From: Eimeria praecox
Taxonomy: Eukaryota
Assembly (NCBI GenBank): GCA_963920595.1
Contig: OY986946.1
Span: forward strand, 3,596,001 to 3,660,000
Length of the DNA stretch: 64,000 nt
Direction: 5' to 3'
Shown here: positions 30,100 to 34,539 of the stretch, piece by piece
How the letters are laid out: each line of letters begins with the position of its first letter
Numbering within the stretch: the stretch's first letter is position 1
The notes under the pieces: model-generated
Seen by the model: only the letters and a program-made list of their open reading frames with translations
Databases searched by the model: none
What the model was told of the DNA's origin: nothing
Position numbers and translations under genes: made by a program

Positions 30100-31224
30100 T
30101 CAGTATATATCTTCAAACGAAACACGAGAAAGAACATCAGCTAAATATAAATGTAGAGTATATAAGCCGTTACTGCAGGGGAAGGTGTGGGTCCTATATA
30201 GAAAAAGACGAAAATAGAAGGGAAATACGTGTATTTATGATTTAAATATATTAAAATATATAAATAAACATGAATATATATTTATTTATTTATATTTATG
30301 TATATTTATTTATATTTATTTATATTTATTGTTTTAAATTATATAAAAAATACAAAATCTCCCTCACCATGCTCGACACATACACCCCGCGATTCTGTTT
30401 ATATTTTCTTCTCTTCTTTCTTCTTCTTGAATTTCAACAATAAATCCTCCCTCCCATCTTATAAAATTGAATATATAAATAAATAATAAATACATTATTA
30501 AATAAATAAAATAAAAAAACAAATATATTCATAAATATACGTACAAAACCATCAAAGTTGCTACGCTCGGTGGCAGCAGCAGCTCCCTCAGCTCTGCCGC
30601 CGTATACACCTCAAGTATGGCTTTCGCAGCATTACTAAAAACAATTAAATTAAATTAAATATTTATTTTATTTTATTTGTTAGTTTTATTATTTAATGCT
30701 ATTTAATAAATATTTCAAACCCCACATTTCTTCTAAAACAGCTCGCTCATAGGCAATGGTAGAAGCAGCAGAGGCAGCACCCTCAGCTCCCTAAAAAAGA
30801 AAGATATGAATATAATTTTATTTTATTTTTTATTTTTGTTTATTGTACTGAACTGTATATATATATATATATATACCTACCTTCTGCTTCGCGATAGCTC
30901 GTACAATAACCTCCTCCTAAACATATGACAACATAAACAAGCAAATCAAATAGCAGGCGTTTGTTTGTTTGTTTGTTTATTTGTTTATTCGTTTGTTTGT
31001 TTATTTGTTTATTTGTTTGCTTATTTGTTTATTTGTCTATTTGATTATACCATATTCATTTATCTTTCTATTTATCTATGCATCTCTACATTTATTTATA
31101 TATTTTATTATCTATATATCTACATATATAGATATATGTTTCTTTATATTTATCTATTCATATATTTATTTATTTACACATTTATATATCTATACATTAA
31201 TTATTTACTTAATTAATTAATTAA

Positions 31225-31287
<63 letters not shown>

Positions 31288-31563
31288 TACCTGCCATAGA
31301 GCAAGACGAGGGAAGGCCTCAATTAACACCTTGCGTGTATTAGCTGCTTCTTGTAAAGAGAAGGAAGAAACACATTTAAATATATTTTTAAAAAAGAAAG
31401 AAAGATCGAAGGAAAAACAAACAAATCCAGAAAATATTACAAAAGCCAAGTGTCGAGCCTCAGCTGTCAATACACCGCAATTCTTATCTTCTTGCAACAC
31501 CTAAGAGAGGAAGGATTAAGATAATTATGAAGATATATTTAATTAATTAATTAATTAATTAGT

Positions 31564-31602
<39 letters not shown>

Positions 31603-31685
31603 TTTTATTTATCAGGGCAAGTAGTTGATTGAATTATCTAATTAATGAGTCAGTAAATTAATAAAGTGTTTAATAGAGGAAGAAA

Positions 31686-31720
<35 letters not shown>

Positions 31721-32727
31721 GCAAACAAAAAGATAAAACAAACAAGACAAACAAACAAATAAAACAAATAAAACAAACAAACAAACAAATAAAACAAATA
31801 AAACAAATAAAACAAACAAACAAACAAATCTAATAACCCCGTGTTTTCTACTTTTTTATATATTACAAAACTCACAATACGCCACAGGAAGTCTGCATCT
31901 CTCTGCATTTCTTGAAGACACAACAACAAATATCTGAAAACAAACAAATAATATACCGAGGGGTTAGGGTTTAGGGTTTAGGGTTTAGGGTTTAGGGTTT
32001 AGGGTTTAGGGGTAGGAGAGTTTAATACTGTAAGGTCTTACGATTAGGCGTTAGAGTATTTTTGGGGTTTAGGGTTTAGGGTTTAGGGTTTAGGGTTTTA
32101 GGGTTTAGGGTTTAAGGTCTAGGGTTTAGGGTTTAGGGTTTAGGGCTTAGGGTTTAGGGTTTAGGGTTTAGGGTTTAGGGTTTAGGGTTTAGGGTTTAGG
32201 GTTTAGGGTTTACGTGTCGTTGCTGATTTCTGCTGCGATGCAAATATCGAGGAATCGTACAGAAGCGACGACGAGAGATTTGCCTGTTGGGGTGTATAGA
32301 CACCATAAATATAATTTATATTTAGATGAAATAAATATAATTTATATTTAGATAAAATAAATATAATTTATATTTAGATGAAATAAATATAATTTATATT
32401 TAGATAAAATAAATATAATTTATTTTTCTACTTTTTCTTCTTCTTCTTTTATTATTTATAAAGATTATACCTGAAGGAGCTTTGAAAGCAGAGAGACGAA
32501 GCCATAGCTGCTGCAGCAGCAGCAGCTGCTGCTGCTGCTGCTGTTGCAGACAACCAGCATTGCATCTTATTTTCTTGTTTGCTGCAGCAGCAGATAAAAG
32601 AGAAGAATAAATAAAATATGTTTTAAAATAATTTAATTATTTTATTATTTACATACTCAAACAAAAGAAATAACGAAGCGAAGGTTCTAACTTTTTCAAC
32701 AAGCTCTCCTGGATCTTGCTGCTCTTG

Positions 32728-32766
<39 letters not shown>

Positions 32767-32943
32767 TTGTTGTTGTTGCTGTTGTTGTTGTTGTTGCCGC
32801 TGCTGCTGCTGCTGTTGTTGTTGTTGCTGCTGGTGTTGTTCGTGTTGCGCTGCAGCAGCAGAGATTTTGATTTCGTGGTTTCATTTCCTGAAGAAGTCTG
32901 CTGCTGCTGCAGATCGGCTCTGTTGCTGCAGCAGCAGCTGCTG

Positions 32944-32974
<31 letters not shown>

Positions 32975-33137
32975 GGCTGCTGCTGCTGTTGCTGCTGCTG
33001 TTGCTGCTGCTGCAGCAGCTGCTGCTGCTGCAGCACCGGGTTGCGACTCTCGATCGTTTAGCAGCAGGAAGGAGCGGGGGAGTTAGATTTTGTGTTTTGT
33101 TGTTTTGAATAGAAGTTGTTAGAGATGAAGAAGAGGA

Positions 33138-33191
<54 letters not shown>

Positions 33192-33523
33192 AGAAGAAGA
33201 AGAAGAAGAAGAAGAAGAAGAAGAAGAAGAAGAAGAAGAAGAAATATAAAGAGAGCGCGTCAGCCTCGTTTTATGATTGTTAACAAAAGCTAAAGATATT
33301 TGTGCACTAAGAAGTTTAAAGTAGAAGAATATATTAAAGCAAATATCCTAAATTATTTTATAATTATATTATTTTAAAATGAGGTGTATGTACACCTGAA
33401 TTATATATAACAAATCTAAAAATTATTTACCTTAGAAATAAATTGAAGAGCAGTACGCCATAATTTAACTTCGCTTTCTGCTTTTTCTAACGTGAGACAA
33501 ACGTCATCTGAGCAGACACACAG

Positions 33524-33584
<61 letters not shown>

Positions 33585-33965
33585 GCAGCAGCAACAGGAG
33601 CAGCAGGAGGAGGAGGAGGAGGAATATGAGCAATTAAAGATTAAATAAATTAAAGAAGGGGATACAATCTAATCCTAGAAAATAATCAAACACTACCTGC
33701 AGCATCAGCAAAAGAAGAAAAAGAAGAAGAAGAAGAAGGAGAAGAAGAAGAAGGAGAAGAAGAAGAAGGAGAAGAAGAAGAAGGAGAAGAAGAAGAGGAC
33801 AGAGAAGATGTTGTCTTAGGAAGCAATTCCTCTCTTTCTGTAGTTAGAGAAAGAAGAAACAAATCAAATAAATATTTGTGAGGTAGACATTCAACAGCCG
33901 CTAAGTCGAAGGCTAAGAGTATTTCGTAGCATTGTAGCCCTGAGGTCCCTGAACATATATATATA

Positions 33966-34044
<79 letters not shown>

Positions 34045-34062
34045 ATGTATATACATATATAT

Positions 34063-34112
<50 letters not shown>

Positions 34113-34539
34113 ATATACAGCATTTGCTGTATGTAGCAGAGTGTAATAGGTAGGAAAAGAGCTAACCTGCGGTGTATAGGGAGATATTAGAGTTAGAGAA
34201 AACCCAAGAAAGAATTTTTTTAATGTGTTTATAACTTCGATGAAGAAGAAAAAGAACAAATCCGTTCATGAACGCCAACGTAACCACAGACTTATTCATG
34301 TTTACGAGGAACCCTCGTGGTTTGAAGCGAGAAACAAGTGTTTTTAATGTATTTATGTCTCCATTAATATGTATTTCTTCAAAATCTGCTATTATATCCG
34401 AAAAACCAGAAAAAAATAAATTATATTCGTCTTCTTCTTCCTCATATGAATAACTCGAAAAACAACTTGAACTTCGATTCGATTTTGATGGTGTTGTATT
34501 GTTGTTTGTTTCTTCAAAATAAACAGAAGAACATGTCAT
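30100..34539 (-). CDS. Family-A DNA polymerase-like protein with a 3'-5' exonuclease-like N-terminus; catalytic motifs degenerate (~701 aa)
   Basis: 14 phase-consistent GT-AG exons: 34539-34167, 33948-33697, 33507-33431, 33347-32657, 32581-32471, 32283-32214, 31933-31876, 31500-31441, 31329-31291, 30916-30881, 30790-30726, 30634-30545, 30457-30368, 30193-30100 (TGA); 2,106 nt with an open frame. Spliced peptides in PolA order: KYLFDLFLLS, LTNKKIRCNAGCLQ, RLSAFKAPSGKSLVVASVRFLDICIAAEISNDTYL, EARHLAFVLIEAFPRLALWQEEVI, LMVLWEGGFIVEIQEE. Confidence 0.7.
31962..32211 (+). repeat. Intronic (TTTAGGG)n array
   Basis: Fills most of intron 32213-31934 of the PolA-like gene and abuts the GT donor. Confidence 0.95.
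32305..32423 (+). repeat. 26-bp AT-rich tandem repeat (~4.5 copies) in an intron
   Basis: Unit ataaatataatttatatttagat(g/a)aa. Confidence 0.85.

What the first reader, a model, noticed from the sequence alone, without database searches (positions are those of the whole stretch)
30100..34539. Intact 14-exon gene for an apparently catalytically dead family-A DNA polymerase (pseudo-PolA)
SEEN: 14 mostly small exons, largely invisible in the ORF track, splice with GT-AG sites and matching phases into a 701-aa open frame, so this does not look like a decayed pseudogene. KNOWLEDGE: Pol I-family enzymes carry, in order, an exonuclease FDTxLA segment, TxTGRLSSxxPNLQ, motif A (IRxAFxAPxGxxLxxADYSQIELRxxAxxSxDxxL), motif B (RxxAKxxNFGxxYG), EAxxxIxxYFxxFPxV, and motif C (LQVHDELVFEV). 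SEEN here in the same order: YLFDLFLLS; LTNKKIRCNAGCLQ; RLSAFKAPSGKSLVVASVRFLDICIAAEISNDTYL; EARHLAFVLIEAFPRLALWQ; LMVLWEGGFIVEI. The motif-A Asp aligns to Ser, the motif-C HDE aligns to EGG, and no motif B (O-helix) is recognisable. INFERENCE: the fold scaffold is kept while the metal- and dNTP-binding residues are lost. That suggests a non-catalytic polymerase paralogue (accessory or processivity subunit, DNA-binding or repair scaffold), distinct from the apicoplast PREX enzyme.
Basis: partly seen in the sequence, partly recalled or inferred. Interest (0 to 1): 0.88.

Follow-up and report, generated by a model that had tools for sequence, protein, structure and literature searches.

The report
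Dead apicoplast-type DNA polymerase copy
This Eimeria-type parasite gene, also present in Eimeria tenella, encodes a protein that resembles the core of family-A DNA polymerases but lacks their DNA-synthesis residues; it is likely a copy of the apicoplast polymerase that would now act as a non-enzymatic scaffold, probably outside the apicoplast.

Summary
Its 14-exon, 701-aa GT-AG frame reproduces. Its intron 8 is stop-free and aligns with the E. tenella orthologue XP_013230136, so 13 exons and 738 aa fit better. That segment holds the supposedly missing motif B, in degenerate form. The C-half aligns colinearly, motif A to C, with family-A polymerases. A search of all PDB sequences gave one hit, Aquifex Pol I (E 0.073). 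A proxy profile for the Aquifex/PREX clade scores 50 against at most 42 for 10 canonical Pol I profiles, and two indels are shared with that clade. A tree could not place it. Both catalytic Asp positions and most dNTP-binding residues are lost in both species. The thumb appears replaced by low-complexity sequence, and there is no signal peptide. No RNA evidence, partner or orthologue outside Eimeria-like sequences was found. The scan noted dead PolA paralogues before, in a diatom and in phages (unchecked).

The parts
34167..34539 (-). Exon 1 (aa 1-124): start codon, acidic N-terminus with no signal peptide, first half of the exonuclease-like domain
   Evidence: a Met lies a few residues before a conserved YF in 5 lineages; fold; hydropathy
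33697..33948 (-). Exon 2 (aa 125-208): rest of the exonuclease-like core, then a Ser/Pro tract
   Evidence: 56 of 84 aligned, 19 identical to E. tenella
33431..33507 (-). Exon 3 (aa 209-234): weakly supported, needed to keep the frame
   Evidence: 4 of 26 aligned; its 3' end is colinear with E. tenella
32657..33347 (-). Exon 4 (aa 235-464): short conserved ends around a long Ser/Ala/Asn low-complexity tract where the thumb would be
   Evidence: thumb position inferred from order relative to the apPol alignment
33048..33068 (-). P-x-x-K-R-x-R basic motif (aa 328-334), kept in E. tenella (aa 247-253) inside an otherwise unconserved tract; possible nuclear localisation signal (inferred, not tested against chance)
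32471..32581 (-). Exon 5 (aa 465-501): pre-motif-A region with a poly-Q/L tract; frame-neutral and missing from the E. tenella gene model
   Evidence: 4 of 37 aligned
32214..32283 (-). Exon 6 (aa 502-524): motif A; codon 32261-32263 = S509 at the catalytic Asp position (Ala in E. tenella)
   Evidence: 14 of 23 identical to E. tenella
31876..31933 (-). Exon 7 (aa 525-544): helices after motif A
   Evidence: 11 of 20 identical
31291..31500 (-). Degenerate O helix (H561, F564, S568, C572 at the Klenow R754, K758, F762, Y766 positions) and an extended O1 helix
31330..31440 (-).
30881..30916 (-). Exon 9 (aa 615-626)
   Evidence: 6 of 12 identical
30726..30790 (-). Exon 10 (aa 627-647): shortened fingers loop; weak GTGGGG donor, supported by colinearity with E. 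tenella
30545..30634 (-). Exon 11 (aa 648-677): helix leading to motif C
   Evidence: 11 of 30 identical
30368..30457 (-). Exon 12 (aa 678-707): motif C; HDE positions are E680/G681/G682 (E/N/V in E. tenella); codon 30448-30450 = G681 at the second catalytic Asp position
30100..30193 (-). Exon 13 (aa 708-738 and stop)
   Evidence: tblastn E 0.003; 13 of 31 identical

Best explanation
The gene encodes a conserved protein that aligns with the palm and fingers of family-A DNA polymerases and lacks both catalytic aspartates; it likely arose as a duplicate of the exonuclease-polymerase unit of the apicoplast enzyme PREX and would now serve as a non-catalytic protein-binding scaffold, probably in the nucleus or cytosol. 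SHOWN: open spliced frame; orthologue in E. tenella; colinear motif A-B-C alignment; loss of D705/D882 and of the R754, F762 and Y766 equivalents in both species (K758 is Phe here, Arg in E. tenella); no acidic motif A or C exon elsewhere at the locus; no hydrophobic N-terminal signal. PREDICTED: exonuclease-type fold of the N-terminal domain, whose first core strand has no Asp or Glu in any of 5 lineages. INFERRED: origin from PREX; loss of the thumb and so of tight duplex grip and processivity; location outside the apicoplast; a scaffold role. With no metal site, no dNTP pocket and no thumb, what remains under selection is most likely the folded exo/palm/fingers surface, used to bind partner proteins or nucleic acid weakly.
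For: Orthologue and 3 more lineages. hhalign of the two C-halves against 68 bacterial Pol I: 205 colinear columns, score 39.7; 0 of 101 column shuffles and 0 of 101 block shuffles reach it (max 25). hmmsearch over 177,635 PDB sequences: 1 hit at E<=10, Aquifex Pol I 8jrb, E 0.073, spanning motif A to past O1. An 8-sequence proxy profile of the Aquifex/PREX clade (its seed's best PDB hits are Prex polymerase) gives probability 86%, score 50.2; 0 of 10 size-matched canonical profiles reach it (mean 33.4, max 42.0), nor do 0 of 55 + 0 of 55 shuffles. Two indels shared with that clade: O1 longer by 4-6 aa, fingers loop shorter by about 9 aa; the longer O1 of apPol is described in PMC12027338. Template-free AF2 model of P0004, residues 49-162, matches DEDDy exonucleases. 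No D-[YFW]-x-x-x-E or HDE/VDE exon in six frames of 28000-36500. No signal peptide in 5 of 5 N-termini; basic motif kept in both full sequences.
Against: The tree is unresolved: stem about 10 changes per site; neither Eimeria+clade 8 (p-AU 0.23) nor Eimeria+canonical Pol I (p-AU 0.28) is rejected. The longer O1 and the IAAE motif also occur in two phage UDG-PolAs, so they are not exclusive. No eukaryotic family-A sequence (PREX, acPolA, Pol theta/nu) was available for direct scoring. No Pfam or NCBIfam polymerase hit. The N-terminal domain has no sequence-level match to PolA. Its fold matches are weak (Foldseek best E 0.009; Z 5-7, tied with ribosomal eL38 and with human Pol nu). AF2 of the C-half failed (pLDDT 38). 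Only two full-length sequences, 36% identical in the C-half. No expression, location or partner data.
Confidence: 0.55

Rival explanations
1. It is a dead family-A polymerase, but derived from another lineage: the mitochondrial acPolA, nuclear Pol theta/nu, or alvPolA.
For: These types exist in or near Apicomplexa (PMC10877234 passages). Human Pol nu is among the top exonuclease-fold matches (Z 6.4, rmsd 3.0, 104 aligned). The tree does not fix the origin. No targeting peptide fits a nuclear ancestor.
Against: The only PDB sequence hit is Aquifex Pol I, although Pol nu chains are in the same library. The indel pattern and profile scores favour the Aquifex/PREX clade over canonical Pol I. No helicase domain precedes the conserved start.
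Confidence: 0.2
2. It is a dead PREX-type copy that still works in an organelle, as an accessory or processivity subunit of the apicoplast or mitochondrial replisome.
For: Likely PREX-type origin. The title of PMC9631997 argues that apPol needs accessory factors (search listing and start of abstract only).
Against: No signal peptide and an acidic N-terminus here and in E. tenella; the start is conserved in 5 lineages. The thumb region is low-complexity. No orthologue was found in other apicoplast-bearing genera (weak negative).
Confidence: 0.12
3. The polymerase resemblance is chance or the gene is decaying: an unrelated coccidian protein, or a pseudogene.
For: No family-library hit. Single-sequence scores are not significant. 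No RNA support. Long branch.
Against: Open frame across 13 exons with orthologues in 4 other lineages. Three separate lines point to PolA in the right domain order: N-terminal fold, library-wide PDB hit, shuffle-tested profile alignment.
Confidence: 0.08
4. It keeps some residual chemistry, such as nuclease or weak nucleotidyl transfer, using the few acidic residues that remain.
For: An acid is kept at the E710 position (D514 here, E313 in E. tenella) and a Glu at the motif-C turn in both species; a Glu is shared in the exonuclease domain of 3 of 3 sequences that reach it.
Against: Both metal-binding aspartate positions (D410/D579 in apPol) are non-acidic in both species. The first exonuclease strand has no acid in 5 of 5 lineages.
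Confidence: 0.05

Closest known systems
[quoted passage not shown]
   Same: Domain order exo-palm-fingers; motif A context ending IAAE; longer O1 helix and shorter fingers loop.
   Different: No primase-helicase fusion, no signal peptide, no catalytic aspartates, degenerate O helix, thumb region replaced by a low-complexity tract.
[quoted passage not shown]
   Same: Colinear alignment from motif A to motif C over 205 columns.
   Different: Lower profile score than cluster 8, differs at both indels, and all key catalytic residues are lost.
acPolA (PF3D7_0625300), the apicomplexan mitochondrial family-A polymerase
   Same: Stand-alone family-A gene in Apicomplexa (PMC10877234 and PMC3874194 passages).
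   Different: acPolA is reported to maintain mitochondrial DNA; no sequence was available, so the relationship is untested.
Family-A polymerases with a dead proofreading domain (APEX/PolA2; Pol theta and nu from recall)
   Same: Vestigial exonuclease domain kept for structure (PMC12926913, PMC10201439 passages).
   Different: Those keep an active polymerase site; here both sites appear dead.

Membership tests
Family A DNA polymerase (active enzyme) | Motifs A, B, C in order in a palm/fingers domain | tested here: met
   205-column colinear profile alignment above all shuffles; sole PDB hit is a Pol I
Family A DNA polymerase (active enzyme) | Motif A catalytic Asp | tested here: not met
   Ser509 here, Ala308 in E. 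tenella
Family A DNA polymerase (active enzyme) | Motif B R-x3-K-x3-F-x3-Y | tested here: not met
   H/F/S/C here, Q/R/Q/L in E. tenella
Family A DNA polymerase (active enzyme) | Motif C HDE | tested here: not met
   EGG here, ENV in E. tenella; no Asp in either alignment register
Family A DNA polymerase (active enzyme) | Thumb subdomain | tested here: inconclusive
   The expected position holds a low-complexity tract in both species; AF2 pLDDT under 50 there; loss is inferred
Family A DNA polymerase (active enzyme) | DEDDy 3'-5' exonuclease-type domain N-terminal to the polymerase | tested here: inconclusive
   Fold matches to EXD2, G20c Pol I (Z 6.7, rmsd 2.8, 97 aligned), Pol nu, Klenow, apPol, all Z under 8; no sequence-level match
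Family A DNA polymerase (active enzyme) | Pfam PF00476 / PF01612 match | tested here: not met
   None at E<=10 for P0004 or for 9 window exon pieces
Family A DNA polymerase (active enzyme) | Template-directed DNA synthesis | not testable with these tools
   needs an assay
PolA cluster 8 (Aquificae-like / apPol) | Longer O1 helix and shorter fingers loop than canonical Pol I | tested here: met
   (7 clade-8 proxies, 8 canonical rows); the longer O1 is also in two phage UDG-PolAs
PolA cluster 8 (Aquificae-like / apPol) | Higher profile similarity than to canonical Pol I | tested here: met
   50.2 against mean 33.4, max 42.0 of 10
PolA cluster 8 (Aquificae-like / apPol) | Phylogenetic grouping with the clade | tested here: inconclusive
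   p-AU 0.23 and 0.28 for the two placements; no PREX sequence in the tree
PREX | N-terminal primase and helicase fusion | tested here: not met
   Start conserved just before the exo-like domain in 5 lineages; no primase or helicase Pfam hit in 13 neighbouring ORFs
PREX | N-terminal signal peptide for apicoplast import | tested here: not met
   Maximum 11-residue hydropathy 0.01-0.81 in the first 45 aa of 5 sequences; a simple scan, not a dedicated predictor
acPolA | Membership of the acPolA clade | not tested
   no acPolA sequence obtained; the paper's supplement was cut
Pol theta / Pol nu | Sequence grouping with Pol theta/nu | not tested
   no sequence held; only indirect: not hit

The most novel reading that the evidence does not exclude
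A copy of the bacterial-type apicoplast replicative polymerase has left the plastid, lost its thumb and both active sites, gained a nuclear signal, and been kept across Eimeria-type coccidia as a structural subunit of a nuclear DNA-maintenance complex: an organelle replicase turned host pseudo-enzyme.
Probability: 0.25. Interest if true: 0.8.

Novelty: new variant of a known kind. Interest (0 to 1): 0.58.

Why it matters
Surveys of organellar family-A polymerases list PREX and acPolA for Apicomplexa; the passages I read mention no dead copy, and the E. tenella orthologue is annotated only as hypothetical and was cited in no paper searched. Pfam misses it, so such copies would be invisible to polymerase inventories. 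If true, it adds an unrecognised family-A derivative to a group of veterinary parasites, shows that both active sites of a PolA can be lost while the gene is kept, and gives a concrete candidate to test for a non-catalytic role. Its apparent restriction to Eimeria-like sequences and the lack of any functional data limit the interest.

Tried and rejected
No whole genome was held, so an intact PREX or acPolA in this organism could not be checked. Word-based homologue searches found nothing beyond E. tenella: weak negatives, not absence from Toxoplasma or Plasmodium. P0006 is a repeat protein and was dropped as spurious. ESM Atlas: best score 0.77 for the C-half, no usable hit for the N-half. Single-sequence and HMM-to-sequence tests against canonical Pol I were not significant. 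phmmer of P0004 and hmmsearch of A1 against PDB, and tblastn of the C-half against phages: no hits. AF2 of the C-half alone failed (pLDDT 38) and was not fold-searched. hhalign numbers are invalid (errors, stale output) and were replaced; one search also held the only test against three 3173-like viral polymerases, which I do not use. Sequencing runs: 22 of 24 listed had shares under 0.1; of 4 runs laid on exon 8, three gave only short low-identity pieces and one (kind unknown, possibly the source) covered it with no joints. A Pol theta origin was my first lead from recall; it lost weight after but is untested. Literature searches that found no description of this gene or of a dead apicomplexan PolA. 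The supplement of PMC10877234 was cut (part 1 of 400 read; its species table not seen) and may bear on the Eimeria polymerase inventory. No complex prediction was sent, as there is no candidate partner.
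Full report
Setting. The window looks like Eimeria: CAG-type low-complexity coding, many internal TTTAGGG tracts, an IMP2_N domain at 59650-60192, and an E. 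tenella best orthologue. No whole genome is held.

Gene model. From the six-frame view I rebuilt 14 minus-strand exons from 34539 to 30100. A full HMMER search with exon 1 over 1.84 billion representatives gave 6 hits at E<=0.001. One is a repeat protein and was dropped; one is a fragment identical to E. tenella over exon 1; three are unnamed fragments at 33-57% identity; one is E. tenella XP_013230136, 537 aa, 'hypothetical protein, conserved'. That protein is colinear with 11 of 13 exons of the revised model; exons 3 and 5 align at 4 of 26 and 4 of 37 residues. Keeping it as coding gives 13 exons and 738 aa, raises the C-half score from 103 to 120 bits and closes a 29-residue gap. No RNA covers the gene, so the junctions rest on orthology.

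Is it a family-A polymerase? Pfam and NCBIfam give no polymerase hit, and single-sequence tests are not significant. Three other lines agree. First, a template-free AF2 model of the E. tenella protein (mean pLDDT 49; mostly 60-80 over residues 51-150) matches DEDDy 3'-5' exonucleases: EXD2 tops Foldseek (E 0.009, probability 0.93-0.97), and G20c Pol I (Z 6.7, rmsd 2.8, 97 aligned), ExnV1 and Pol nu top the wide search. These Z values are middling and tie with ribosomal eL38. Second, the two C-halves align with a profile of 68 bacterial Pol I over 205 colinear columns from motif A to C, score 39.7; 0 of 101 column shuffles and 0 of 101 block shuffles exceed 25; the 14-exon model scores 29. Third, a two-sequence profile searched against all 177,635 PDB sequences returns one hit at E<=10, Aquifex pyrophilus Pol I (E 0.073), spanning motif A to past the O1 helix. 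AF2 of the C-half alone failed (pLDDT 38).

Which lineage? Aquifex Pol I and the apicoplast PREX polymerase belong to one PolA cluster (PMC10201439 and PMC6733595 passages). No PREX sequence could be held, so I used 8 cyanobacterial plasmid polymerases as proxy; the seed's best PDB hits are Prex polymerase (1.5e-88), Aquifex (1.6e-82), then Klenow (1.7e-70). Against this profile the Eimeria pair scores 50.2 (probability 86%); 10 size-matched canonical profiles give mean 33.4, max 42.0; the 14-exon model gives 33.1. Shuffles reach at most 20.7 and 31.8 (55 each). The joint alignment shows two indels shared with the proxies against 8 canonical rows: O1 longer by 4-6 residues and the fingers loop shorter by about 9. 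A longer O1 is described for apPol (PMC12027338 passages). Against this reading: two phage UDG-PolAs share the longer O1, and a 27-row tree leaves the pair on a very long branch, rejecting neither placement (p-AU 0.23, 0.28). acPolA and Pol theta/nu were not scored. I put PREX origin at about 60-65%.

Catalysis. In Klenow numbering (numbers recalled; positions read), window / E. tenella: D705 is S509 / A308; E710 is D514 / E313; R754 is H561 / Q; K758 is F564 / R; F762 is S568 / Q; Y766 is C572 / L; HDE is EGG / ENV. An alternative hhalign register at motif C puts Trp at the Asp position; neither has an Asp. No exon with an intact motif A or C exists in six frames of 28000-36500. The first core strand of the exonuclease-like domain has no Asp or Glu in 5 of 5 lineages (its identity as ExoI is inferred from the model). 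The stretch where the thumb should lie is a Ser/Ala/Asn tract of about 170 aa here and a shorter Ala/Ser tract in E. tenella; loss of the thumb is inferred.

Location and mechanism. A Met lies a few residues before a conserved YF in all 5 lineages, so the protein stands alone, without primase or helicase. None of 5 N-termini has a hydrophobic signal. Both full sequences keep P-x-x-K-R-x-R in the unconserved tract, a possible nuclear signal, not tested against chance. The most likely reading is a duplicate of the PREX exo/pol unit that lost import, both active sites and the thumb, and is kept as a folded binding platform. A processivity role is unlikely without a thumb. An open frame over 13 exons with orthologues at 32-57% identity argues against a pseudogene, but dN/dS could not be computed.

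Comparison and novelty. It works like a pseudo-enzyme built on a Klenow-type scaffold and is not a member of the active family A, since motifs A, B and C fail. Eight literature searches found no description of it. Papers seen as passages only: PMC10877234 (plus part 1 of 400 of a cut supplement), PMC6635534, PMC3874194, PMC12926913, PMC12027338, PMC10201439, PMC7689252, PMC8113025, PMC6733595; PMC9631997 as listing and start of abstract. The scan's own notes report dead PolA paralogues in a diatom and two phage groups (unchecked), and none similar in sequence or in this genome.

Verdict. Observation partly confirmed, interpretation partly supported. Dead family-A derivative about 0.88; PREX origin about 0.6-0.65; full best explanation 0.55. 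New variant of a known kind; interest 0.58.

Noticed in passing
window 3571-18471 (+): One stop-free frame of 4,967 aa, 39% Gln, rich in Leu/Glu/Ala, coiled-coil-like; it explains the high GC and AT skew of the first 18 kb.
   Followed up: no
window 59650-60192 (+): Exon with an Immune Mapped Protein 2 N-terminal domain (PF18590, E 6e-14).
   Followed up: partly
window 34648-34725 (-): A short coding-looking terminal exon ends about 110 nt upstream of the gene's ATG on the same strand; probably the last exon of a close upstream neighbour; no Pfam hit.
   Followed up: partly
window 31970-32208: Intron 6 is filled with telomere-like TTTAGGG repeats starting directly after the donor; 32 such tracts of 3 or more copies occur across the window.
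   Followed up: no
window 26014-28803 (-), 40850-42499 (-), 50333-52216 (+): Long single-frame ORFs (929, 549, 627 aa) with no credible Pfam family; the first has a GGPPE-type repeat, the second a signal-peptide-like start.
   Followed up: partly
P0004 (E. tenella XP_013230136): The E. tenella gene model lacks the region matching frame-neutral exon 5 and part of exon 3, so its annotation may be incomplete.
   Followed up: partly
L168, L169, L182-L187: Aquifex/PREX-type family-A polymerases are common on cyanobacterial plasmids (23 of the 25 rows listed).
   Followed up: partly
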